A DNA stretch of 61,659 nt, from positions 1-61,659 of the forward strand of contig CAZYQY010000002.1 of NCBI GenBank assembly GCA_964649795.1, written 5' to 3'. The first letter of the stretch is position 1, and each line of letters starts with the position of its first letter. The translations under genes were made by a program, and so were the position numbers. The DNA is from an uncultured Candidatus Saccharibacteria bacterium (GTDB taxonomy: Bacteria > Patescibacteriota > Minisyncoccia > Portnoybacterales > UBA2143). The notes beneath the pieces were generated by a model. It made no database searches and was not told where the DNA came from. It saw only the letters and a list, made by a program, of their open reading frames with translations. Positions 13,997 through 61,659 of this stretch are shown here, piece by piece.

Positions 13997-14356
13997 TTAG
14001 TTTAGGGATCTAATCCAGCCTCCGAGCATTCGGCCGATTTCCTGAATCTTTTCTTCCAGATTTAGGTATTTTTTATTATCCAGCATCTTAAACTCTCGAG
14101 CCATTCTAAGTAAAACTTTTAAAAGGTCAAATTTGTTATTCGCTTCTAATAGTTTTGCTTTTTTCTCTTGCTTATACGAGCTAACTGCGGATAATATCAA
14201 TTCCATAAAATCAATGATATTTTCTTCGCATTTCTTGCCCAACACATATTGATCCTTTTTAGGAAAGATTTTTAAACACTCATAGAACTCCTTGTAAAGA
14301 TCAGTTGTCTTTTTGAGGATTGGCGCCTCGCTTTGAATTTGGTTTAAATTTTGCAT
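13997..14356 (-). CDS. avd: DGR accessory variability determinant (Avd-like four-helix-bundle protein)
   Basis: 119-aa helical protein. LYKEFYECLKIFPKKDQYVLGKK and a C-terminal IGRMLGGWIRSL match the Avd / 23S-IVS four-helix-bundle family. Adjacent to the DGR RT and TR. Confidence 0.75.
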   Translation of the reverse strand: MQNLNQIQSEAPILKKTTDLYKEFYECLKIFPKKDQYVLGKKCEENIIDFMELILSAVSSYKQEKKAKLLEANNKFDLLKVLLRMAREFKMLDNKKYLNLEEKIQEIGRMLGGWIRSLN

Positions 14357-14358
14357 AT

Positions 14359-15409
14359 ATGAAGATTTATAAAGACATTTTTAAGGATATAATTTCAATG
14401 GAGAATTTGCTTTTGGCTTGGGATGAATTTAAAAAGGGCAAAAGAGAGAAACAAGATGTTCAGGAATTTGAGCTTCATCTAGAGGATAATCTGTTTGCCC
14501 TCCACCAAGAATTAAAAAGCAAGAAATACAAGCATGGCGACTATGTTGGTTTTTATATCAACGACCCAAAGAGAAGGCATATCCACAAAGCAACGGTCAG
14601 AGACAGAGTCGTCCATCATGCTATTCATCTAAAACTCTATCCTATTTTTAATCCGACCTTTGTTTACACCTCCTATTCATCCCGCAAAGAAAAAGGGACC
14701 CACCGGGCAGTTATTAAACTGGATAAAATGTTAAGGGCTGTTTATCAGACCCACGGCAGATGTTCTGTCTTAAAGTGTGATATTAAGAAGTTCTTTCCAA
14801 CTATTGATCATAAAGTATTAATGAAAATTATTGCCAAGCGGATTAAAGATAAAGATGCTTTGTGGTTGATAAAAAAGATTGTCAAAAGCTTTGAGTCGGA
14901 ATTTACCACCAAGAGAGATAAAAAAAGGAACCCCAATTGGCAATTTGACTTCTCAAATTTTGGTTAATATTTATATGAATGAAATGGATCAATTTATTAA
15001 AGACCAGCTTAAAGTTAAATATTATGTCCGCTACGCTGATGATTTTATTGTTGTTCATCATGCCCAGGATTATTTGCTGAGTTTGAAAGGTCAGATCGAA
15101 TCTTTTCTCAAAAAGAATCTAAAACTATCACTTCATCCGGGCAAAGTCACTATTCGTAAATACTACCAAGGGATTGATTTCTTGGGTTATGTAATCTTGC
15201 CTAAAGCCATTGTCTTAAGAACTAAAACTAAACAGAGAATTTTTAGGAAATTGAGACAAAGAGTAAAGGAATATAAACAAGAAAAAATAGATGAGAAAAC
15301 CTTCCTGCAATCGTTTAATTCTTATCTGGGAGTATTGAGTCACGCCAAGAGCTACAAGTTTGAGCAGGAATTAAAACACAAAATGTGGGAGTGGCTTAAA
15401 GAAGATTGA
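14359..15409 (+). CDS. DGR-type reverse transcriptase, reading frame interrupted at an A7 run (14920-14926)
   Basis: Joins ORFs 14320-14967 and 14879-15409. The probable start is the ATG at 14359 (MKIYKDIF...). Motifs seen are FFPTIDH, GTPIGNLTSQ (the DGR-specific IGxxxSQ), YVRYADDFIVV (YADD) and GIDFLGY. Removing one A at 14920-14926 restores ...RDKKGTPIGNLTSQ... Confidence 0.85.
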
Positions 15410-50706: not shown

Positions 50707-50872
50707 GATAGCGTTATGATTAGTTCTTTTCAAATGCGGTTTAGAATACTATGAGGCAAGTATTTTGGATATCAAATTATTTGATTTCTGAAATACTTGT
50801 CTCATAAAGAGATAAGTCGTTAGTCCGAGCGATTCGGATAGAAAATCACAGAAAGGATAAAGGAGGTATGCC

Positions 50873-51646
50873 ATGGAAAGTATGGTGAGCCACACCCTGT
50901 CGGTGCACAACGAACACGAATTTTTACTGAAAATGGAGAAGGCGGGTCTTTCTGAAGAACTTGCCCAGAAGGTCATTGACTCAAATGGCAACGAACTCGC
51001 CCAAAAAGTAGTCAGATTCATTCAGAACGGCGGTTTTGAGCCGACAACCAGCCAGAAGCGCACTCGTGAAATCATAGGTCAGAATTTCTTCGGTGTCGAA
51101 GAGGCCATCCAGCATTTCGGAGTTAACCCAACCCGTCAGCAAACACTTGCTTTGTCGGAGGTTCCTTTTTCTGAAGAAGTACTTCAGAAGGCAAGGGATA
51201 CTCACGCTCTGATGGCGGTCTTCCCGCTTTCGATTCTCGAGATTCGCGGCAAGGTTGAGCGAAAGCTTTTTTACGGCTATGAAGATGCTTGGTATAACAA
51301 GCAAGCATTTGCCAAAGAGCGTGGTGAGACAAGCTGGCAACTGGTTCGCAAAACACCAGTGAACAATTCAACCTCGAAAAACTGGGAAGAGCAACAAGCT
51401 CTTATTTCGAAAGAGGACGAAGTCCCGACTCCCCAAGTGATGGTCTATACCATTATTGGTCATTACCTGGCTACTGGCGAGCGTCTGTTCGAGCACATTT
51501 ATGTCCGTACGTCATTTGTAGTTTCGGACGGCTTCCGCGTCTACGTCGGCAGCTTCGATTCGGATGGTCTCTCTGTCGGCAGCTACTGGGATGACCGCCG
51601 TGAGGGCGGCTTGGGCGTCTCGTCCGCTCGGAAGTTCCCCGCATAA
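50873..51646 (+). CDS. DGR-target-like protein paralog (no cognate TR found in this window)
   Basis: GC-rich 257-aa ORF with an aaaggagg SD. The C-terminus GFRVYVGSFDSDGLSVGSYWDDRREGGLGVSSARK parallels the VR segment of the 15714-16445 protein, including a similar ending (GSASCRS vs GVSSARK). Confidence 0.65.
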   Translation: MESMVSHTLSVHNEHEFLLKMEKAGLSEELAQKVIDSNGNELAQKVVRFIQNGGFEPTTSQKRTREIIGQNFFGVEEAIQHFGVNPTRQQTLALSEVPFSEEVLQKARDTHALMAVFPLSILEIRGKVERKLFYGYEDAWYNKQAFAKERGETSWQLVRKTPVNNSTSKNWEEQQALISKEDEVPTPQVMVYTIIGHYLATGERLFEHIYVRTSFVVSDGFRVYVGSFDSDGLSVGSYWDDRREGGLGVSSARKFPA

Positions 51647-51834
51647 ATCACGAAGTGATTTTGCGGGATAAATTGAATCCTGAACCCTTAAAATTTTGTT
51701 CCTTTTGATAACTTGAGCCTTCGGCGATATTTTCGTTGAGGGCTCTTTTCTTTCCCTAAGATTTCCTATAAAATATAAATGTCTGCTAATGAAGGTTGGA
51801 CCACGGTTTAACCTCGCGGACGTCTCATCTTTGA

Positions 51835-52032
51835 GATATCGCCAGAGTATCGTTGTTTACGGATAACGATAGCGTGCGACAAAAGATGGAGATTGAACTT
51901 CTTAAGGGAATAATCAGCCAAGAAATTCTTGAGCAATCGTTTCAGTCCTACATGGGCGTTCTTTCTCATGCTGATACTTATAAATTGGGACAGGAACTGA
52001 AAAATCAATTCTGGTTTTGGCTTAACAAATAG
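51835..52032 (+). pseudogene. Fossil C-terminal fragment of a second DGR-type reverse transcriptase
   Basis: The open frame translates to ...VRQKMEIELLKGIISQEILEQSFQSYMGVLSHADTYKLGQELKNQFWFWLNK*. This is collinear with the RT C-terminus LRQRVKEYKQEKIDEKTFLQSFNSYLGVLSHAKSYKFEQELKHKMWEWLKED*. No finger or palm motifs lie upstream. Confidence 0.6.
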
Positions 52033-54444: not shown

Positions 54445-54547
54445 TATACCAAAAAACCGCCATTAAGGCGATTTTTTTAGAGGTTTGACCTCGAATAGTA
54501 GCGACATTGCGAAGCAGGGTCGCGCTTGAGAGGTCGAACCTCGATAG

Positions 54548-54580
54548 GAAGCAAGGACGTCATTTTAAGGACGATGCCTC
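54548..54580. repeat. Left 33-nt inverted repeat bracketing the TA/nuclease cassette
   Basis: gaagcaaggacgtcattttaaggacgatgcctc matches the reverse complement of 56408-56440 at 32 of 33 positions. Confidence 0.7.
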
Positions 54581-54609
54581 GAGATTATGAAAACAACGCC
54601 TCTGGATTA

Positions 54610-54945
54610 TTATAAATCAAAATGGATTCTTAAATAATCTTTAACTTGATCTATTGTATCTTTCTTTATAGCTCCAATTTGTTTAATAAAACGTGATCTA
54701 TCAAAAGACTGAATATGATGAACTTTTAATATTGAATCACAAAACAATCCATTCTGACTATCCTTAATTACTAAAATATCATCTTGAATTTTATTATTTG
54801 AATTTGAAGTAAGTGGAATTATTGTAAAAACAGAACTCTTTTTAATTTGAGAATTGGTTTCAATAATTAAAGCAGGTCGTTCTTTCTTATATTCGTGGCC
54901 AACTGAATTCAAAAATTTAACTAACCAAATTTCGCCTTGATTCAT
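54610..54945 (-). CDS. mazF: MazF/PemK-family type II toxin endoribonuclease
   Basis: GEIWLVKF....G.E..K.RPALII...IIPLTS pattern. Overlaps the upstream antitoxin gene by 4 nt. Confidence 0.8.
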   Translation of the reverse strand: MNQGEIWLVKFLNSVGHEYKKERPALIIETNSQIKKSSVFTIIPLTSNSNNKIQDDILVIKDSQNGLFCDSILKVHHIQSFDRSRFIKQIGAIKKDTIDQVKDYLRIHFDL

Positions 54946-55796
54946 AAATTCTTATAATAATTATATTCCTTATCCGACATCTCTCCTAAACTTTTAAGCG
55001 TATCTCCCGCAGCAACATCTTGCCATACTTGTTCATAATCAAATTGAGCATAGGGCAATTCACGATAAACTACTAAATCATAAGAAATAATTTCATTATC
55101 TTTAGTAGAATTCCATGGCGCATCTCCATGAACATATTCTTCAATTTGCCTAGCGCTCATATCTGACAAACGAGTAAGAACTTTATCAACTAATTCCTTT
55201 TCTTTTATTAAAAAACCATCCATTTTGTAATCCTTAAGAGCTATGTATCTTTTTTGAGTTCTTCCATAATAATCTTGATTAAAAATCTTTATTTCTTGAT
55301 TATTTCTCATATTTTGGACAACATGCTTATATTGTTTTATTTGCGGTATGGGCCCAAATTTCTGATGTATATAATTCATTCCTGTTATTGGTCTTCCCAA
55401 GGATTCATAAGCGTCAAAATCAATAAAATATAAGAGTTTATATAAAACTGTCTCTCCAAAATTCGGCTTACCGCCGCACTTTGATAAAATATACAAAATA
55501 AGTTCACGCAATTTCTCAGATTCAAATTTTATATCCTTGTTTGCATTTACTGCGCGTTTACTTTTAATAGAATCTTCAATTTCTACTTTTTTATTCTTAA
55601 GTAATTCATCAGCACTCAATTCAAATACTTTTGCCATCTTTACTAATTCTAAAGCGTCAATGCTGCGATTGCCTCTTTCAAGCTCTGATAATGCCGCGCG
55701 TGAAATGCCAATAAATTTTGCTAATTTTTCTTGACTAAATTCTCTTTCTTCGCGCAATTTTTTAATTTTTTGACCTAATTGTTTTTGTGTAAACAT
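54942..55796 (-). CDS. XRE-type HTH fused to a DUF4065 (Panacea/SocA-like) antitoxin domain
   Basis: The N-terminus LGQKIKKLREEREFSQEKLAKFIGISRAALSELERGNR is an XRE HTH. The C-terminal region KLRELILYILSK.GG...FGETVLYKLLYFIDFDAY...G.PITG..Y....FGPIP is DUF4065-like. Confidence 0.7.
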   Translation of the reverse strand: MFTQKQLGQKIKKLREEREFSQEKLAKFIGISRAALSELERGNRSIDALELVKMAKVFELSADELLKNKKVEIEDSIKSKRAVNANKDIKFESEKLRELILYILSKCGGKPNFGETVLYKLLYFIDFDAYESLGRPITGMNYIHQKFGPIPQIKQYKHVVQNMRNNQEIKIFNQDYYGRTQKRYIALKDYKMDGFLIKEKELVDKVLTRLSDMSARQIEEYVHGDAPWNSTKDNEIISYDLVVYRELPYAQFDYEQVWQDVAAGDTLKSLGEMSDKEYNYYKNL

Positions 55797-55830
55797 ATTT
55801 TTATTAATTTAAGTTATCCACACTACTTCT

Positions 55831-55860
55831 AGTATAACGTATTGATGGATTTACTGTCAA
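55831..55860 (-). promoter_or_regulatory. Candidate promoter of the antitoxin-toxin operon
   Basis: Minus strand reads TTGACA-18 nt-TATACT, about 35 nt upstream of the start codon. Confidence 0.4.
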
Positions 55861-55877
55861 TACCCCGCTGGATTTTC

Positions 55878-55906
55878 TTGACATTAAAGAACTATTTTAG
55901 TAAAAT
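55878..55906 (+). promoter_or_regulatory. Candidate promoter of the SNase-like gene
   Basis: TTGACA-17 nt-TAAAAT. It is followed by a leader of about 150 nt carrying two hairpins (aacaggg..ccctgtt and aatgtgt..acacatt). Confidence 0.45.
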
Positions 55907-56060
55907 GCAAGGATAAACCCAGAAATAAAACAGGGTCAACATAAAAGTCGAGCCCTGTTTGGAAATGTGTTAAGTCGATATCCTATACACATTAACCTTA
56001 CATTAACAGAATAGCATATTTTCAGTTTTTGGGAAATAAAAATTAACCGCTTTCAAATTT

Positions 56061-56330
56061 ATGCCAAAAGGTAAAGTAAAAGAAGTTGTTGACGGCGATA
56101 CTGTTAGATTGCCCTATAATAAATTCATTAGGCTATCTGGTGTTGACGCACCAGAAAAAAACCAAAAAGGAGGATCTGCTGCTACAAATGAACTTAAAAA
56201 ATTAGTTGAAGATAAAACTATCAGCTACACAGAAGATGCCCGATCGTATGGTCGTATAGTAGGGACAGTAAAGGTTGGAAGTAAAAACGTCAATAATGCA
56301 ATGAATAGTTTCATTAAAAAACAGAAATAA
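56061..56330 (+). CDS. Minimal staphylococcal-nuclease (SNase/thermonuclease)-like protein
   Basis: VVDGDTVRL, RLSGVDAPE and YGRIVG mirror the SNase Ca-binding and catalytic positions. The protein is only 89 aa. Confidence 0.6.
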   Translation: MPKGKVKEVVDGDTVRLPYNKFIRLSGVDAPEKNQKGGSAATNELKKLVEDKTISYTEDARSYGRIVGTVKVGSKNVNNAMNSFIKKQK

Positions 56331-56340
56331 AAAAGTTTTT

Positions 56341-56371
56341 AGCAGGAAGTAATTAGCTTCTTGCTTTTTTT
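56341..56371 (+). terminator. Rho-independent terminator of the SNase-like gene
   Basis: agcaggaag-taattag-cttcttgct stem (one G:U pair), followed by six T residues. Confidence 0.75.
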
Positions 56372-56407
56372 GCCCTTCCCAAATCTCCTCCAAATCTCAT
56401 AGCCAAA

Positions 56408-56440
56408 GAGGCGTCGTCCTTAAAATGACGTCCTTGCTTC
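56408..56440. repeat. Right 33-nt inverted repeat bracketing the TA/nuclease cassette; part of a 63-nt hairpin (56408-56470)
   Basis: gaggcgtcgtccttaaaatgacgtccttgcttc. The segment also folds back on tcattttaaggacaagcctc at 56451-56470. Confidence 0.7.
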
Positions 56441-56547
56441 GCAAGAAGCATCATTTTAAGGACAAGCCTCTTCGTAATTTGATTATACTACATTGACCAG
56501 GAAACTGAAATGAGATAAAATTAAAATAATTAGCTAAAAGAAACAAA

Positions 56548-59500
56548 ATGGATTTATCTAATAATAATGATACAGCTACTCCAAATAAAGAGAAAGAAAA
56601 AATTCTTGGCAAAAAGGAAAGTTCTCTTAAAAGTAAAGAAGATCTTGAAAAAAGATTAAGCAAAATAAAGCGTAATGAAGAAGAAGATAAGGCTAAGCAT
56701 TTGGGAGAAAAACTCAACCTCCCTTATGTTAATTTAGATTTAATACCAGTTGATTCTAATGATCTGAATATATTGGCAAAAGAAAAATCTGAAAAAGGAA
56801 ATATTTTAGTTATTAGAAAAATTGGGAAAAATCTTCAATTGGCTGTTAAAAATCCTGATGATTCTCAAACAAAAGAAATTATTAAAGAATTAGAAGATCA
56901 AGGATATAAATGTTCTTTAGTTATTGTTTCTTTAAGCGGTTTAAGAAAAAAAAGGCTTCGTTATGAATTAATTGCGACTAATCTTGTTTCTATAACAAGT
57001 GCTTTGGTTATCCAAGAAGAAGAACTAAAAGAATTTGAAAAATCATTACAGACAATCCAAGAACTGAAAAAGACAATTAATACTCTTTCAACGACTCGTC
57101 TCTTGAACATTATTATAGCTGGGGCTATTAAAATGGGGGCTTCTGATATTCATTTTGAACCAGGTAAGGAAAGTATTCGACTTCGCTATAGGATTGACGG
57201 GCTGCTTCAAGATATTACTGATTTTCCTGCTAATGCTTATAGATTTTCACTTTCCAGAATCAAAACTTTATCAGGCATGATTCTTAATGTTAATGAAATT
57301 TCCCAGGACGGCCGTTTTTCTGTTAAAATTATGAACAAAGGAAAATCTGTTAAAAACATTGACATAAGAGTTTCTATTTTGCCAAGCGGTTATGGAGAAA
57401 GCATTGTTATGCGTCTTTTAGGATTAGGGGCTATTGAATTAGATTTAATTGATTTAGGATTTGGACCGGAATTATTTGAAATAGTCAAAGGTCAGATTAC
57501 GCGACCAAACGGAATGGTTCTAACTACTGGACCAACTGGTTCAGGCAAAACCACTACTCTTTACGCATGTCTTAATAATGTTAATAAATCAAGCACTAAA
57601 ATCATTACTGTTGAAGATCCGATTGAGTATAGACTAAAAGGAATCACTCAAACTCAAATTAGCGAACGCAAAGGACAAACTTTTTTAAAAGCTCTTAAAA
57701 CTGTTGTTAGGCAAGACCCGGATATTTTAATGATTGGCGAAATTAGAGACGGAGAAAGCGCTAATATCGCCATTCAATCCGCTTTAACAGGGCACTTGGT
57801 ATTTTCCACTATTCATACTAATGACGCAGCTGGAGCTGTGCCTCGTTTAATAGAAATGGGAATTAAGCCATTTCTTATTCCAGCAGCCCTTAATTTGGTT
57901 ATTGCCCAGCGTTTAGTTAGACGGCTTTGTCCTTATTGCAAAGAATCTTACAAACCATCAGCTGAATTAATTAAAAGCACAAAAAAGATTTTCTCGCTGA
58001 TTTCGCCAAAATCAGGAATTGATATTCCTAAAAAACTATCTGTTTTTTATAAAGCTAAAGGATGTGAAAAATGCTATGGATTAGGATATCAAGGCAGAAT
58101 TGGCATTTTTGAATTGTTTACTGTTAATGATGCTATTGAAAAATTGATTCTTAAACAAGCCACCTCTTATGAGCTTAGAGCAAAAGCAATGGAAGAAGGC
58201 ATGCTTACATTAATGCAAGATGTAATGCTAAAAGTTGCTGAAGGGATAACAAGCATAGAGGAAGTTCAAAGAGTTATCGGCTCTCCTCAATATATTGAAC
58301 AGCTTTATGGCAGGGCAATTATGTCTATGCTTAGCCGGGCTCTGGTCATAGATGAGGAAATTTTCGAATGGTCTCAATCTATAACTCTAGGCGATAAAAA
58401 AATACAGGAAAAGATTAGTCAAGCCAGAATGGATGATTTAATAAAATGGATTATTGCTATTTCCTTAAAACTAAAAGCTACTGATATTCATTTTGAAGCA
58501 GAAGAAACAAGTCTCATAATAAGATTAAGAATAGACGGCTCTCTAGAAAAAGTAGCTGAAATTGCCAAAGAATTATTCCTGTCTACGGTAGCACAAATAA
58601 AAGAATTGGCTGGTATGGTAATTGACGTTCATAAAAAAGCCCAGGACGGAAGATTTAAAATAGAATGCCCTGATGAAAAAGTTTATGACACTAGAGTATC
58701 AGTTATCCCTAGTGGGTACGGAGAATCAATAATCATTCGCCTGCTTAGACCTGACATAGCTGTTCTTTCTTTAGAACAATTAGGAGTTCGTCCAGAATTA
58801 TTAAAAGATTTACAAAAAGTTATTAAATCGCCTAATGGAATTGTATTTGTAACTGGGCCGACTAGCGCTGGCAAAACAACTACTCTTTATTCTATCCTTA
58901 GCCAATTAAATAGGCCTGAGACAAAAATTTTCACAATTGAAGACCCTATTGAATATCGACTCTCCGGCATAATCCAAACTCAAATTGACAAAGAAGAAGG
59001 TTACACTTTTTTTGAAGCTTTAAGAGCCCTTCTTCGCCAAAACCCGAATATTATTATGCTTGGCGAAATTAGAGATTCAGAGACCGCGCAATCAGCTATT
59101 CAGGCCTCTCTTACCGGCCATTTAGTTTTAACCACCCTTCACACTAATAGCGCAGTTGAAGCTATACAGAGATTAACTAATCTTGATATCAAGATTGGAG
59201 ATATTAGTTCTTCAACTAAAGCTATTGTAGCCCAAAGATTAGTTAAAAAACTTTGTCCTTATTGCAGAAAGGAACAAAAAATTTCTCCTGAGACTTTGGA
59301 GAGAATAGAAAAAGAGCTAAAGCAAATGCCAGCTCTCTATCAAAAGCAAATTAAAGAAATAAAATTATATAAACCAGGTAAATGCGAGAAATGCAATCAA
59401 AGGGGATATAAAGGACAAATAGGTATCTTTGAAATATTAATCACTGACAAAGAGATAAAAAAGAGTATTCTTTCTTCAGCCAGTCCAGAACAGATAGAAG

Positions 59501-59613
59501 AACTGGCCAGAAGCAAAGGCATGCTCACGCTATATCAAGATGGTTTGCTTAAAGCAATTGAAGGAATAACTACTCTGGAAGAGATAGAAAGAGTAATAGG
59601 ACGAAGACCTTAA
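56548..59613 (+). CDS. pilB: Tandem-fused double PilB/GspE-type secretion/pilus assembly ATPase
   Basis: There are two complete modules. Module 1 has a T2SSE_N-like N-terminus, ASDIHFEP, GPTGSGKTTTLY, ITVEDPIEY, MIGEIRD, TGHLVFSTIHTND and CPYC..CEKC. Module 2 has ATDIHFEA, GPTSAGKTTTLY, FTIEDPIEY, MLGEIRD, TGHLVLTTLHTNS and CPYC..CEKC. Confidence 0.85.
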   Translation: MDLSNNNDTATPNKEKEKILGKKESSLKSKEDLEKRLSKIKRNEEEDKAKHLGEKLNLPYVNLDLIPVDSNDLNILAKEKSEKGNILVIRKIGKNLQLAVKNPDDSQTKEIIKELEDQGYKCSLVIVSLSGLRKKRLRYELIATNLVSITSALVIQEEELKEFEKSLQTIQELKKTINTLSTTRLLNIIIAGAIKMGASDIHFEPGKESIRLRYRIDGLLQDITDFPANAYRFSLSRIKTLSGMILNVNEISQDGRFSVKIMNKGKSVKNIDIRVSILPSGYGESIVMRLLGLGAIELDLIDLGFGPELFEIVKGQITRPNGMVLTTGPTGSGKTTTLYACLNNVNKSSTKIITVEDPIEYRLKGITQTQISERKGQTFLKALKTVVRQDPDILMIGEIRDGESANIAIQSALTGHLVFSTIHTNDAAGAVPRLIEMGIKPFLIPAALNLVIAQRLVRRLCPYCKESYKPSAELIKSTKKIFSLISPKSGIDIPKKLSVFYKAKGCEKCYGLGYQGRIGIFELFTVNDAIEKLILKQATSYELRAKAMEEGMLTLMQDVMLKVAEGITSIEEVQRVIGSPQYIEQLYGRAIMSMLSRALVIDEEIFEWSQSITLGDKKIQEKISQARMDDLIKWIIAISLKLKATDIHFEAEETSLIIRLRIDGSLEKVAEIAKELFLSTVAQIKELAGMVIDVHKKAQDGRFKIECPDEKVYDTRVSVIPSGYGESIIIRLLRPDIAVLSLEQLGVRPELLKDLQKVIKSPNGIVFVTGPTSAGKTTTLYSILSQLNRPETKIFTIEDPIEYRLSGIIQTQIDKEEGYTFFEALRALLRQNPNIIMLGEIRDSETAQSAIQASLTGHLVLTTLHTNSAVEAIQRLTNLDIKIGDISSSTKAIVAQRLVKKLCPYCRKEQKISPETLERIEKELKQMPALYQKQIKEIKLYKPGKCEKCNQRGYKGQIGIFEILITDKEIKKSILSSASPEQIEELARSKGMLTLYQDGLLKAIEGITTLEEIERVIGRRP

Positions 59614-60834: not shown

Positions 60835-61092
60835 TTACTGATAAATTCGGTGGGTTCCGACTGAGTGAAGATAGACTATGTCTTTATCCGCAAATTCAAA
60901 AATAATTCGGTATTTATAGTCAATAGAAAAAGACCAGAAGCCCTTGAATTTTCCAGCAAGCTTATGAGTTTTTAACCTCTTGTCAAAAGGATTTTTAAGG
61001 AAAATTTTTTCATTGTCCTCAATCAAATCCTTAATCTTGTCCGGCAGTTTCTTGTATTTACGAACAAAACAAGGAGAGTATAAAACTTTCAT
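60835..61092 (-). CDS. relE: RelE/ParE-superfamily type II toxin
   Basis: 85 aa. F.K.YKKL......+....I..L..NPF...LKTHKL.G...G.WSFSI...YRIIF pattern. Confidence 0.75.
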   Translation of the reverse strand: MKVLYSPCFVRKYKKLPDKIKDLIEDNEKIFLKNPFDKRLKTHKLAGKFKGFWSFSIDYKYRIIFEFADKDIVYLHSVGTHRIYQ

Positions 61093-61118
61093 TAAATTAT
61101 CCGTTGTTTAATTTATAC

Positions 61119-61334
61119 TTATCTTAAATCTCTAAAAGAATGTAAAACTTTGCCTTTGCCAGCTTTAAACTCTCGGCGACTTTCTCCTATTTCGGCTAAA
61201 AGTTTATTTTCTTCGTACTCACGCAAAAGAGAACGGAAAAATTCGCTAACGCTTGCATACTTGCCTTTTTTTACCTCCTGCTTGATCATTTTAGCCATTT
61301 CAGCAGGCATTGAAATATTTATAATATTACGCAT
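61119..61334 (-). CDS. Ribbon-helix-helix (CopG/ParD-like) antitoxin
   Basis: The likely start is MRNIINISMPAEMAKMIKQEVKKGKYASVSEFFRSLLR (ATG at 61334). The ORF is open to 61391. It lies directly upstream of the toxin. Confidence 0.65.
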   Translation of the reverse strand: MRNIINISMPAEMAKMIKQEVKKGKYASVSEFFRSLLREYEENKLLAEIGESRREFKAGKGKVLHSFRDLR

Positions 61335-61403
61335 GTTTTTTGTTGTAATAATTTGTATTACAATTTTAGCAGAGCTAAAAACCATTGTCAAGTCTTAACA
61401 TTA

Positions 61404-61507
61404 GAGGCGCGTCCTTAAAATACATACCCTTGCCAACGATACTCTTTAAATAATAGTCAATCATCTAAACTCAGATGGAAAGGGTATGTATTTTAAGGAC
61501 GCGCCTC
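61404..61507. repeat. Long hairpin repeat (perfect 28-bp arms, 48-nt loop), same family as the 54548 and 56408 repeats
   Basis: gaggcgcgtccttaaaatacataccctt ... aagggtatgtattttaaggacgcgcctc. Shares the core gaggcgYgtccttaaaat with 56408-56426. Confidence 0.7.
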
Positions 61508-61521
61508 GGGATTCGAAAAAT

Positions 61522-61545
61522 CTCTCGCTTGCGGGAGTTTTTTTT
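61522..61545. terminator. Hairpin plus T8 terminator-like element
   Basis: ctctcg-cttg-cgggag stem-loop, followed by tttttttt on the plus strand. Confidence 0.5.
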
Positions 61546-61659
61546 ATTTTTTAAAAACCCCTAAAACTATGCACATGATGAGATACATAGGTAACACCCC
61601 TAAAATCAAGCAATATGACAAAAATGGTTGATAAAGAGGGTTTTACATATTATGATAGA

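What the first reader, a model, noticed from the sequence alone, without database searches (positions are those of the whole stretch)
54548..56440. Toxin-antitoxin plus nuclease cassette bracketed by 33-bp inverted repeats
A 1.9-kb segment lies between tsaE and the pilB-like gene. It is delimited by gaagcaaggacgtcattttaaggacgatgcctc (54548-54580) and its inverse gaggcgtcgtccttaaaatgacgtccttgcttc (56408-56440), which match at 32 of 33 positions.

Inside the segment are:
- A mazF/pemK-type toxin.
- An HTH-DUF4065 antitoxin.
- A divergently transcribed 89-aa SNase-like nuclease with its own promoter, structured leader and terminator.

No transposase or integrase is present, and I see no target-site duplication. 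The bracketing repeats belong to a hairpin-repeat family that also occurs at 61404-61507 beside a second TA module. A cluster of further small palindromes (gaggtttgacctc, gaggtcgaacctc) sits at 54481-54547.

The arrangement suggests a non-autonomous mobile or recombination-delimited defence/addiction cassette.
Basis: partly seen in the sequence, partly recalled or inferred. Interest (0 to 1): 0.65.

Follow-up and report, generated by a model that had tools for sequence, protein, structure and literature searches.

The report
Toxin-antitoxin islet between palindromic boundary elements
The 33-bp inverted repeats are real, but they are the facing arms of two copies of a widespread, apparently undescribed hairpin element of Patescibacteria that sits where conserved genes meet variable defence or addiction genes, so they are not the ends of a mobile toxin-antitoxin cassette.

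Summary
In detail: arms 54548-54580 and 56408-56440 match at 32 of 33 positions, and the gene calls are right.

- **Islet content.** The segment is a strain-variable islet in a Parcubacteria-type genome. It holds two separable modules: a known-type PanAT toxin-antitoxin operon (HTH-Panacea antitoxin plus PemK/MazF toxin) and a divergent 89-aa mini-thermonuclease gene.
- **Modules elsewhere.** Each module recurs in other genomes with its own homology boundaries and without the repeats.
- **Nature of the repeat arms.** They are the 3' arms of two oppositely oriented members of a roughly 70-nt imperfect hairpin family. I recovered more than 40 copies from Patescibacteria genomes and metagenomes, none in Rfam or viral contigs.
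- **Right copy.** It is resident upstream of pilB in relatives that lack the cassette.
- **Close relative.** A relative with 97% identical PilB lacks 54447-56481, which is more than the repeat-delimited block.
- **Negative evidence.** I found no target-site duplication, no inversion variants and no second copy of the bracketed unit.
- **Hairpin polarity.** In 6 of 7 informative locus groups the 5'-arm flank is conserved and the 3'-arm flank carries different accessory genes.

The hairpin most likely acts as a REP/BIME-like boundary or recombination hotspot. Its mechanism is unproven.

The parts
54449..54480 (.). Bidirectional intrinsic terminator-like hairpin (CGCC/GGCG stem flanked by an A-run and a T-run) between the islet and the tsaE start
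   Evidence: DNA fold; sequence. It lies inside the segment absent from relative L017.
54481..54543 (+). Hairpin A, a diverged member of the hairpin family (GAGGTTTGACCTC ... GAGGTCGAACCTC; shares the TTGCGAAGCAGGGTCG core)
   Evidence: Fold. It is homologous to L037 184-286 together with the adjoining half-arm (70% over 105 nt; alignment). The L035/L037 counterpart scores 36.6 bits with model R1.
54548..54580 (+). Left inverted-repeat arm: a lone 3' arm of the hairpin family in canonical + orientation, facing the islet
   Evidence: The covariance-model hit 54513-54589(+) scores 19.1 bits, E 0.004.
54595..54609 (+). Extra partial copy of the hairpin's 3' end plus tail (ACAACGCCTCTGGATTA), abutting the mazF stop codon
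   Evidence: Sequence. Similar partial 3'-end repeats follow full hairpins in L054, L060, L079, L087 and L088.
54610..54945 (-). PemK/MazF-family toxin gene (111 aa)
   Evidence: Pfam PF02452, E 1.9e-22. It overlaps the antitoxin gene by 4 nt.
54942..55796 (-). HTH (XRE) plus Panacea/DUF4065 antitoxin gene (284 aa), PanA type
   Evidence: Pfam PF13274, E 5.5e-19, and PF01381, E 5.9e-15. 828 homologues, many labelled Parcubacteria or Patescibacteria.
55797..56060 (.). Divergent control region. It holds back-to-back -35 boxes (TGTCAA ... TTGACA), both -10 boxes, and a conserved leader hairpin at 55928-55960 with compensatory changes.
   Evidence: Promoter scan. Alignments with L023, L040, L035 and L045. 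RNA fold z-score -2.9.
56061..56330 (+). 89-aa mini-thermonuclease (SNase) gene
   Evidence: Pfam PF00565. Aligns to residues 16-97 of S. aureus nuclease variant chains, with DGD, R, D-x-P-E and YGR conserved. A family of 29 clusters, 86-96 aa.
56341..56365 (+). Intrinsic terminator of the nuclease gene (10-bp stem plus T-run)
   Evidence: Nucleotide homology of the SNase unit to other loci ends at 56369-56370.
56399..56472 (-). Full hairpin element H, canonical orientation on the minus strand. The right inverted-repeat arm 56408-56440 is its 3' arm. A short tail follows at 56371-56407.
   Evidence: Model R1 scores 84.5 bits, E 1e-22. Fold. Homologous copies lie upstream of pilB in L020 (82%) and L092, and 35 metagenome loci carry copies at 83-98.6%.
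56493..56521 (+). pilB promoter-like site, retained in the relative that lacks the islet
60835..61391 (-). Second toxin-antitoxin module (RelE/YoeB/YafQ-like toxin 60835-61092; RHH antitoxin 61119-61391), absent from relative L017
   Evidence: Pfam. Synteny.
61404..61507 (.). Third hairpin family member (32-nt arms, 40-nt loop) between the second toxin-antitoxin module and an IS481-like transposase gene starting at about 61615

Best explanation
**What it is.** The region is a small strain-variable accessory islet in a Patescibacteria (Parcubacteria-type) chromosome, wedged between tsaE and pilB. It is a mosaic of two separable modules.

- **Module 1: toxin-antitoxin operon.** This is a PanAT-type type II operon.
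  - The MazF/PemK endoribonuclease toxin is presumably neutralised by the Panacea domain of the upstream antitoxin.
  - The antitoxin's XRE helix-turn-helix domain presumably autoregulates the operon from the divergent promoter region.
- **Module 2: nuclease gene.** An 89-aa mini-thermonuclease gene is transcribed divergently from a back-to-back promoter, through a conserved leader hairpin, to its own terminator.

**What the repeats are.** The two 33-bp inverted repeats are not ends of this cassette. They are the 3' arms of two oppositely oriented members of a Patescibacteria-wide imperfect-palindrome family of about 70 nt:

AAGAGGCTTGTCCTTCAAAATGATG - variable apical stem-loop - CGTCATTTTAAGGACGACGCCTCTGGATTAA

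- The right copy is a resident element upstream of pilB.
- The left copy is a composite: a diverged full hairpin, then a lone 3' arm, then a partial 3' end.
- Both copies turn their 3' arm towards the islet.

**How it most likely works (inferred).** These hairpins behave like REP/BIME-type mosaic elements that mark the edge between conserved and exchangeable DNA.
- Accessory modules are gained, lost or swapped on the 3'-arm side, by recombination at or near the hairpin.
- The hairpin plus the neighbouring terminators also block transcription leaving the islet towards tsaE and pilB.

**Shown:** anatomy, family membership, synteny, module boundaries and hairpin polarity.
**Inferred:** toxin-antitoxin biochemistry, co-regulation of the nuclease, and the recombination or insulator role of the hairpins.
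For: **Repeat and hairpin anatomy**
-.

**Gene identities and family precedent**
- Pfam calls.
- PanAT systems with PemK-like toxins and HTH-bearing PanA antitoxins are described in PMC8832971.

**Synteny**
- L017, L018 and L019 (PilB 97%) have tsaE and pilB 72 bp apart and lack window 54447-56481.
- L020 (78%) has Exonuc_VII_L and two small unannotated ORFs there, plus a homologous hairpin.
- L092 (84%) carries an identical hairpin H upstream of pilB.

**Independent modules**
- Toxin-antitoxin DNA 54607-56039 is 85% identical to L023-25.
- Toxin-antitoxin DNA 54607-55890 is 86% identical to L027-34.
- Both lie in different contexts without the hairpin.
- The SNase unit (about 55946 or 56055 to 56370) recurs in L035-44 and L045, always divergent from an XRE-HTH operon.

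**Hairpin family**
- 11 genome hits, 9 of them in Patescibacteria-type MAGs.
- 35 metagenome loci at 83-98.6% identity.
- A conserved basal stem with fixed bulges and a covarying apical stem.
- Only three members in the 61.6-kb window, all flanking the two toxin-antitoxin islets.

**Polarity**
- In 6 locus groups the 5'-arm flank is conserved and the 3'-arm flank differs. One group shows the opposite.
- The 3'-side genes include a reverse transcriptase, Fic/Doc, Dam and other methylases, DUF3800, a type III Mod subunit, a Panacea antitoxin, an MNT nucleotidyltransferase, a serine recombinase and a PD-(D/E)XK nuclease.

**Same geometry elsewhere**
- In L071 two inverted hairpins bracket a 5.5-kb stretch carrying two DNA-methylase genes, with 3' arms inward.
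Against: - **No enzyme.** None is tied to the hairpins. No recombinase, RAYT or HUH gene is consistently nearby.
- **Low copy number.** There are 1-2 strict-pattern hits per MAG and 3 copies in 61.6 kb, unlike classic REP elements.
- **No fixed breakpoint.** Homology breaks lie after variable 'tails', not at one nucleotide, so a precise crossover site is not defined.
- **Counter-example.** One locus pair has the conserved flank on the 3' side.
- **Selfish insertion.** One element lies in frame inside comFC. That points to selfish insertion rather than a boundary function.
- **Recurring pair.** The toxin-antitoxin plus SNase pair does recur together in L045, so the two modules sometimes travel as a unit.
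- **Sampling limits.** The metagenome scan is not exhaustive, because window-identical contigs were not returned. The polarity test rests on 7 locus groups.
Confidence: 0.7

Rival explanations
1. The 1.9-kb block between the 33-bp inverted repeats is a non-autonomous mobile element, such as a MITE-bounded composite transposon. A transposase supplied in trans recognises the repeats and moves the block as a unit.
For: - A near-perfect 33-bp inverted repeat.
- The block is absent from a close relative.
- An IS481-like transposase lies 5 kb away, next to another family member.
- L071 shows a second islet between inverted hairpins.
Against: - The missing segment runs 54447-56481, beyond both arms.
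- The right arm belongs to a hairpin that is resident upstream of pilB in relatives without the cassette.
- There is no target-site duplication at the arms or for the family.
- The toxin-antitoxin and SNase modules occur elsewhere without the arms.
- No second copy of the bracketed unit was found. The Logan contig breaks at 54551, 54577 and 56436 are explained by other hairpin copies sharing the 31-mers, for example the T-variant in L071.
Confidence: 0.07
2. The hairpins are attC-like or att-like sites for a trans-acting site-specific recombinase. Accessory genes are inserted and excised as cassettes at the 3' end of the hairpin. The window's islet is such a cassette set lying between two convergent sites.
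For: - An imperfect hairpin with fixed bulges and a variable apical structure, as in attC.
- Strong polarity of variable DNA on the 3'-arm side.
- Two direct copies flank a single DUF3800 gene in L060.
- Partial direct repeats of the 3' end lie downstream of full hairpins, as expected for attR-like scars.
Against: - No integrase or consistent recombinase lies next to any of the roughly 40 copies.
- The attC core sites RYYYAAC and GTTRRRY are absent.
- The window's and L071's copies are inverted, not direct.
- Breakpoints are not at a fixed nucleotide.
- The toxin-antitoxin operon has its own promoter and moves without hairpins.
Confidence: 0.2
3. The hairpins are only polar transcription barriers (insulators or terminators). 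They are retained next to core genes to stop read-through from acquired DNA. The inverted arrangement reflects the need for an outward-facing barrier at each end of an islet.
For: - The geometry in the window and in L071 puts the same strand of the hairpin in the path of transcripts leaving the islet.
- Canonical terminators sit beside both window copies, at 54449-54480 and 56341-56365.
- The conserved-side gene often starts just beyond the 5' arm, as for pilB and NIF3.
Against: - No U-tract follows the stem, and the terminator scan does not call the full hairpin.
- 83-98% sequence identity, with fixed bulges, across genomes whose proteins are 45-80% identical is not expected for a purely structural terminator.
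- One copy lies in frame inside comFC.
Confidence: 0.15
4. The inverted repeats mediate inversion of the 1.9-kb segment, acting as an invertible switch for the toxin-antitoxin and nuclease genes.
For: A 27-bp exact inverted identity could support recombination.
Against: All contigs from several samples that span one or both junctions (L001-L003, L005, L007, L009, L012-L014) have the window's orientation. There is no invertase gene. Promoters and terminators are internal, so inversion would change nothing obvious.
Confidence: 0.02

Closest known systems
PanAT type II toxin-antitoxin systems (Panacea/DUF4065 antitoxins; Kurata et al. 2022, PMC8832971)
   Same: The antitoxin has an N-terminal HTH and a Panacea domain. 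It lies upstream of the toxin and overlaps it by 4 nt. A PemK/MazF-type toxin is one of the partners reported for Panacea antitoxins.
   Different: Nothing essential differs. This example is in Patescibacteria and is paired with a divergent mini-nuclease gene. Toxicity and neutralisation are untested.
REP / BIME / REPIN elements of proteobacteria
   Same: Extragenic imperfect palindromes combined in mosaics with other short motifs (the hairpin A motif GAGGTCSGACCTC and two kinds of tail). Partial and tandem copies occur. Sequence is conserved across loci.
   Different: Copy number is low. There is no GTAG head and no RAYT gene in view. The element is about 70 nt long with a variable apical stem. 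It is conserved across genera and shows a marked polarity relative to variable DNA.
Rickettsia palindromic elements (RPE) and other MITE-like palindromes (Correia, RUP, ERIC)
   Same: A small palindromic element at polymorphic sites. One copy is inserted in frame in a protein-coding gene, comFC in L053. This resemblance is drawn from my own knowledge of RPEs.
   Different: There is no target-site duplication and no parent IS with matching ends. The family is far less abundant.
Integron attC sites / CALINs
   Same: An imperfect hairpin with conserved unpaired bases and a variable terminal structure. Accessory genes lie next to it, and one two-copy direct array flanks a single gene.
   Different: The attC core consensus is absent, no intI gene is present, the window's copies are inverted, and the cargo has its own promoters.
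Staphylococcal nuclease (thermonuclease) family
   Same: The conserved DGD, R, D-x-P-E and YGR motifs align with residues 16-97 of the S. aureus enzyme. Equating them with the Ca2+/catalytic residues D19/D21, R35, D40, E43 and R87 is from my own knowledge.
   Different: The protein is only 86-96 aa and lacks the C-terminal third of the fold. It forms a Patescibacteria-specific subfamily that is always divergent from an XRE-HTH gene.

Membership tests
PanAT type II toxin-antitoxin | Antitoxin carries a Panacea (DUF4065/SocA_Panacea) domain | tested here: met
   PF13274, E 5.5e-19, residues 118-228.
PanAT type II toxin-antitoxin | Adjacent co-directional toxin gene in a two-gene operon | tested here: met
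   The PemK toxin 54610-54945 overlaps the antitoxin 54942-55796 by 4 nt on the same strand. The pair is conserved in L023-34 and L045.
PanAT type II toxin-antitoxin | Toxin is growth-inhibitory and is neutralised by direct binding of the antitoxin | not testable with these tools
   Needs expression assays.
MITE-bounded / composite transposon | Terminal inverted repeats coincide with the ends of the inserted DNA | tested here: not met
   The segment absent from the close relative runs 54447-56481 and extends beyond both arms. The right arm is part of a hairpin found in relatives without the cassette.
MITE-bounded / composite transposon | Target-site duplication | tested here: not met
   None at the arms. 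No consistent duplication across 27 family copies. A 7-bp ATTATAC flanks the larger missing segment, but the relative's site does not reduce to it cleanly.
MITE-bounded / composite transposon | The same unit with the same ends occurs at other loci | tested here: not met
   The toxin-antitoxin and SNase modules are found elsewhere without the arms.
REP/BIME/REPIN | Extragenic imperfect palindromes forming mosaics with other motifs | tested here: met
REP/BIME/REPIN | High copy number per genome | tested here: not met
   Three copies in 61.6 kb. One or two strict-pattern hits per MAG in the genome collection. The MAGs are incomplete, so these are lower bounds.
REP/BIME/REPIN | Cognate RAYT (Y1 HUH transposase) gene | not tested
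   None was seen among the flanking genes scanned. Whole genomes were not searched.
Integron attC | R''/R' core sites RYYYAAC ... GTTRRRY | tested here: not met
   The family consensus has AAGAGGC ... GCCTCTGG at its ends.
Integron attC | Imperfect hairpin with unpaired bases and a variable terminal structure | tested here: met
   fixed bulges, and an apical stem with compensatory changes at 4 pairs.
Integron attC | Direct-orientation arrays next to an intI integrase | tested here: not met
   The window and L071 copies are inverted. L060 has two direct copies, but no integrase lies in any held locus.
Rfam RNA families | Match to a curated covariance model | tested here: not met
   No hit for the hairpin in the window or in 9 loci. 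Only tmRNA, tRNAs and DUF3800-II/V RNAs were found, all at other positions.
TIGR-Tas arrays | Tandem array of guide units next to a Tas (Nop-domain) gene | tested here: not met
   The copies are single. No Tas or Nop-domain hit appeared among the islet genes or the hairpin-flanking genes scanned against Pfam. Family description from PMC12045711.
SNase/thermonuclease | Conserved thermonuclease motifs (DGD, R, D-x-P-E, YGR; the Ca2+/catalytic residues D19/D21, R35, D40, E43 and R87 by my own numbering) | tested here: met
   The alignment to S. aureus thermonuclease variant chains keeps DGD, R, D-x-P-E and YGR. The motif read as T41 is A here.
SNase/thermonuclease | Complete OB-fold domain of about 107-140 residues | tested here: not met
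   Only profile positions 2-68 of 107 are covered. All 29 relatives are 86-96 aa, so this is a conserved short form and not a recent truncation.

The most novel reading that the evidence does not exclude
The roughly 70-nt hairpin is a previously undescribed, polar recombination or integration site of Patescibacteria, functionally comparable to attC or attB but independent of integron integrases. Defence, toxin-antitoxin and restriction-modification modules are exchanged on its 3'-arm side. It is often placed next to type IV pilus and competence genes, possibly coupling DNA uptake to islet turnover. On this reading the window's islet is one such exchangeable unit caught between two convergent sites.
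Probability: 0.22. Interest if true: 0.8.

Novelty: new variant of a known kind. Interest (0 to 1): 0.5.

Why it matters
The toxin-antitoxin operon is an ordinary member of a described family. The 'bracketed mobile cassette' reading should not be carried forward.

The hairpin element behind the repeats is worth following.
- It is conserved almost to the base across Patescibacteria genomes whose proteins are only 45-80% identical.
- It matched no Rfam family and had no exact pattern match in the viral contigs.
- It sits at the junction between conserved genes and interchangeable defence or addiction genes with a consistent polarity.
- It recurs beside type IV pilus and competence genes.

If it is a recombination site or hotspot, it would explain how these tiny, largely uncultivated genomes turn over their defence repertoires. 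It would also give a sequence tag for locating variable islets in fragmented MAGs. Finally, the recurrent pairing of an 89-aa nuclease with XRE-HTH-led operons suggests an unrecognised third component of some toxin-antitoxin or defence modules.

Tried and rejected
- **Excision or inversion polymorphism.** Logan contigs break at 54551, 54577 and 56436, inside both arms. I first read this as evidence for alternative junctions. The breaks are exactly those expected in a k=31 graph (my assumption about the Logan assemblies) if the 33-mers occur elsewhere with other flanks, and they do: the T-variant in L071 and the C-variant in L058, L069 and L089. Rejected.
- **L017 as the ancestral empty site.** Rejected, because the 84% and 78% relatives carry hairpin H upstream of pilB. 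L017 therefore reflects a secondary deletion.
- **Target-site duplication.** The ATTATAC at 54443-49 and 56482-88 is not cleanly supported by the relative's sequence. A family-wide scan was negative.
- **Hairpin arms as ends of the neighbouring IS481-like element.** The IS begins after 61540 with unrelated sequence. The right end of the IS is not available.
- **Known RNA families and TIGR arrays.** No Rfam match. No array and no Tas gene.
- **Phage att site.** The pattern is absent from viral contigs.
- **PADLOC.** No defence-system model matches MazF or the nuclease beyond generic HTH hits.
- **Flipped hairpin.** An apparent flip of H relative to its flanks turned out to be the palindromic extension of the flanks.
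- **SNase as a truncated pseudogene.** Rejected, because all relatives are 86-96 aa.


Full report
**1.

- The two 33-nt arms (54548-54580 and 56408-56440) are 97% complementary. The core 19-mer is found twice against 0.02 expected in shuffles.
- The gene calls were confirmed by Pfam:
  - TsaE.
  - A PemK/MazF toxin, 54610-54945(-).
  - An HTH plus Panacea (DUF4065) antitoxin, 54942-55796(-), overlapping the toxin by 4 nt.
  - An 89-aa SNase fragment-like protein, 56061-56330(+).
  - A 1021-aa tandem-ATPase PilB.
- Divergent promoter-like sites and a terminator after the nuclease gene are present.
- The small palindromes at 54481-54547 pair with each other into one 63-nt hairpin.
That hairpin's own partner arm is shortened. 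The left arm is a lone half-copy that complements the right arm better than the right arm's own partner does.

**2. Organism and synteny**

Named homologues are labelled Parcubacteria or Patescibacteria.

| Relative | PilB identity | Between tsaE and pilB | Hairpin H upstream of pilB |
|---|---|---|---|
| L017-L019 | 97% | 72 bp only | absent |
| L092 | 84% | unknown (contig starts inside H) | identical copy |
| L020 | 78% | Exonuc_VII_L gene plus two small unannotated ORFs | 82% identical copy |

- In L017, nucleotide alignment stops at window 54446 and resumes at 56482. The missing 2035 bp contain a terminator, both hairpin elements and the genes, so the gap is larger than the repeat-delimited block.
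- L017 also lacks the second toxin-antitoxin module, the third hairpin and the IS that follow ruvB.
- H is therefore an old resident of the pilB upstream region. What lies between it and tsaE varies. The 'empty' state in L017 is a secondary deletion.

**3. The cargo is a mosaic, not one cassette**

- The toxin-antitoxin DNA recurs at 85-86% nucleotide identity in two other contexts. In both, homology starts 3 nt outside the mazF reading frame, at 54607.
  - In one relative it lies between the DUF3048 gene and holA (54607-55890).
  - In GCA_030629575.1 it lies between unrelated genes (54607-56039).
  - No full hairpin is nearby in either.
- PanAT systems with PemK-like toxins and HTH-bearing Panacea antitoxins are already described (PMC8832971).
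- The 89-aa nuclease is not a broken gene. It belongs to a family of 29 clusters of 86-96 aa. It keeps the DGD, R, D-x-P-E and YGR motifs of staphylococcal nuclease, which I take from my own knowledge to be the catalytic residues.
- In every context retrieved it is divergent from an XRE-HTH-led operon:
  - HTH-Panacea plus a 114-aa gene inside a restriction-modification island.
  - HTH plus M78 peptidase plus DUF3368 plus KAP NTPase.
  - HTH-Panacea with the start of a downstream ORF, cut by the contig end and homologous at DNA level to the window's mazF.
- Its nucleotide unit runs from about 55946 or 56055 to 56370 and ends before H.
- The intergenic region keeps several features in all contexts. 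These are back-to-back -35 boxes (TGTCAA ... TTGACA), both -10 boxes, and a leader hairpin with compensatory changes.
- In L023-25 an unrelated 110-aa ORF occupies the nuclease slot behind the same leader.
- Co-regulation of the divergent gene by the antitoxin's HTH domain is a reasonable inference. It is not shown.

**4. What the repeats are**

- Pattern scans recovered 9 copies in Patescibacteria-type MAGs of the genome collection, plus 2 chance-like hits. They recovered 35 metagenome loci, all with full hairpins 83-98.6% identical to 56407-56472.
- The consensus is AAGAGGCTTGTCCTTCAAAATGATG - apical stem-loop - CGTCATTTTAAGGACGACGCCTCTGGATTAA.
- The basal stem is nearly invariant, including fixed asymmetric bulges. 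The apical stem varies in sequence and length, with compensatory changes at four pairs.
- Conservation of the 3' arm is partly forced by my search pattern. Conservation of the 5' arm is not.
- A covariance model built from 27 copies gives three credible hits in the 61.6-kb window, all at the edges of the two toxin-antitoxin islets:

| Coordinates | Strand | Score |
|---|---|---|
| 56399-56472 (H) | - | 84.5 bits |
| 61404-61507 | either | 31 bits |
| 54513-54589 (left composite) | + | 19 bits |

- The left composite (hairpin A plus a lone 3' arm) has a homologue at the edge of a restriction-modification/SNase island next to pilM in another genome (L035/L037 184-286).
- The family has no Rfam match and is absent from viral contigs.
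- It shows no target-site duplication.
- It occurs with other short motifs, partial 3'-end repeats and tandem partial 5' arms in a BIME-like mosaic.
- The Logan contig ends inside the arms are explained by other family copies sharing the same 31-mers with different flanks. They are not evidence of excision or inversion. All junction-spanning contigs share the window's orientation.

**5. Polarity**

I compared hairpin loci that share only one flank. The flank on the 5'-arm side was conserved and the flank on the 3'-arm side was unrelated in six locus groups:
- pilB
- pilO
- a small membrane protein
- a methyltransferase
- NIF3
- a 197-aa protein

One group showed the opposite (the counter-example was checked).

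- The genes on the variable side include a reverse transcriptase, Fic/Doc, Dam and N6/N4 methylases, a type III Mod subunit, DUF3800, an SDH protease with a Panacea antitoxin, an MNT nucleotidyltransferase, a large serine recombinase, NYN and a PD-(D/E)XK nuclease.
- In the window both elements turn their 3' arm to the islet. In L071 two inverted hairpins bracket a 5.5-kb stretch carrying two DNA-methylase genes in the same geometry. In L060 two direct copies flank one DUF3800 gene.
- The 33-bp inverted repeat is therefore the expected by-product of an islet lying between two convergent boundary elements of the same subfamily.

**6. Mechanism**

- **Toxin-antitoxin (by homology).** The MazF RNase is held in check by the Panacea domain, with autoregulation through the HTH domain.
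- **Hairpin (my commitment).** It is a REP/BIME-like element that acts as a recombination-prone boundary and probably also as a transcription barrier.
- **Evidence that supports a specific function or mobility.**
  - The polarity and the partial 3'-end repeats favour a recombination site.
  - The near-identity across distant genomes points to a sequence-specific partner or to mobility.
  - An in-frame copy inside comFC adds about 43 residues relative to H. pylori ComF. That shows the element can insert as selfish DNA, much as Rickettsia palindromic elements do (the comparison is from my own knowledge).
- **Evidence against a defined recombination system.** There is no linked recombinase, breakpoints vary after different tails, and copy number is low.
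- **A pure terminator role is unlikely.** There is no U-tract and the sequence is conserved to the base.

**7. Unexplained association**

About a third of distinct contexts are next to type IV pilus or competence genes:
- upstream of pilB
- upstream of pilM
- at the end of a pilM-pilN-pilO operon
- inside comFC

**8. Verdict**

- The repeats are not cassette termini, and there is no evidence that the block moves as a unit.
- The toxin-antitoxin operon is a new member of a known kind.
- The hairpin family is, as far as Rfam and the searched literature show, undescribed. It is best filed as a new variant of REP/BIME-like palindromic elements, with an unusual polarity.

Noticed in passing
window 56061-56330; L035 5001-5270, L040 4742-5011, L045 1282-1545: An 89-aa mini-thermonuclease family (86-96 aa, Patescibacteria) lies divergent from an XRE-HTH-led operon in all four contexts retrieved. 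The partner operons are a Panacea toxin-antitoxin, an M78 peptidase/DUF3368/KAP NTPase set, and others. Back-to-back promoters and a covarying leader hairpin are conserved. It may be a co-regulated third component.
   Followed up: partly
window 55890-56039 (leader hairpin 55928-55960): This non-coding stretch is conserved at about 85% with L023 and 76% with L040. In L023-25 an unrelated 110-aa ORF with no Pfam hit follows the same leader in place of the nuclease. It has no Rfam match.
   Followed up: partly
L053 2236-2357 (also L057, L062, L075, L085): The hairpin element plus an A-motif lies in frame inside a comFC-like gene (ORF 1756-2484). It adds about 43 residues relative to H. pylori ComF (7p0h), reminiscent of Rickettsia palindromic elements.
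   Followed up: partly
window 56548-59613: PilB is a 1021-aa fusion of two complete T2SSE ATPase modules. The internal DNA repeat has a 1326-nt spacing. Most of the 120 best of 8000 scored homologues, where named mostly Patescibacteria, are about 1000 aa long.
   Followed up: no
window 50750-51900: A 1-kb segment with 48-53% G+C sits in a 33% G+C genome. It holds a 257-aa ORF (50873-51646) without Pfam hits. A 28-nt-arm palindrome at 50750-50806 starts with GAGGC. In relatives L017 and L018 a DGR-type RT plus bAvd pair occupies this slot.
   Followed up: partly
window 13997-15409: A DGR-like pair: bAvd (13997-14356, minus strand) and a reverse transcriptase split into two overlapping ORFs (14320-14967 and 14879-15409). 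The split suggests a frameshifted or decaying RT.
   Followed up: partly
window 61508-61659 and L001 1-1091: An IS481-like rve transposase (360 aa) starts at about 61615, just after the third hairpin and a terminator. The longest matching JGI contig ends 8 nt after its stop codon, which suggests a multicopy IS.
   Followed up: partly
L060 9434-9502; L089 4187-4282: Rfam DUF3800-II and DUF3800-V RNAs lie next to DUF3800 genes, within about 1.2 kb of hairpin copies. In L060 the RNA lies between two hairpins.
   Followed up: no
L020 5870-5900 and 7628-7660: In the 78% relative, a block holding a 68-aa ORF and the Exonuc_VII_L gene between tsaE and pilB is flanked by direct repeats of another small hairpin (TCGGCTATCGCATAGCCGAAT).
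   Followed up: no
L046, L061, L063, L077, L083, L089, L091 (downstream of hairpins); window 56371-56398 (reverse orientation): A second conserved motif, CCTCCAAATCTTTTATTTATTT, follows many hairpin copies after a pyrimidine-rich spacer. In the window a related 20-mer (CCCAAATCTCCTCCAAATCT) is present in the opposite orientation.
   Followed up: partly
metagenome scan: Contigs identical to the window, which must contain the search pattern (for example Ga0307439_1022154), were not returned by the metagenome pattern scan. The census is therefore a lower bound.
   Followed up: no
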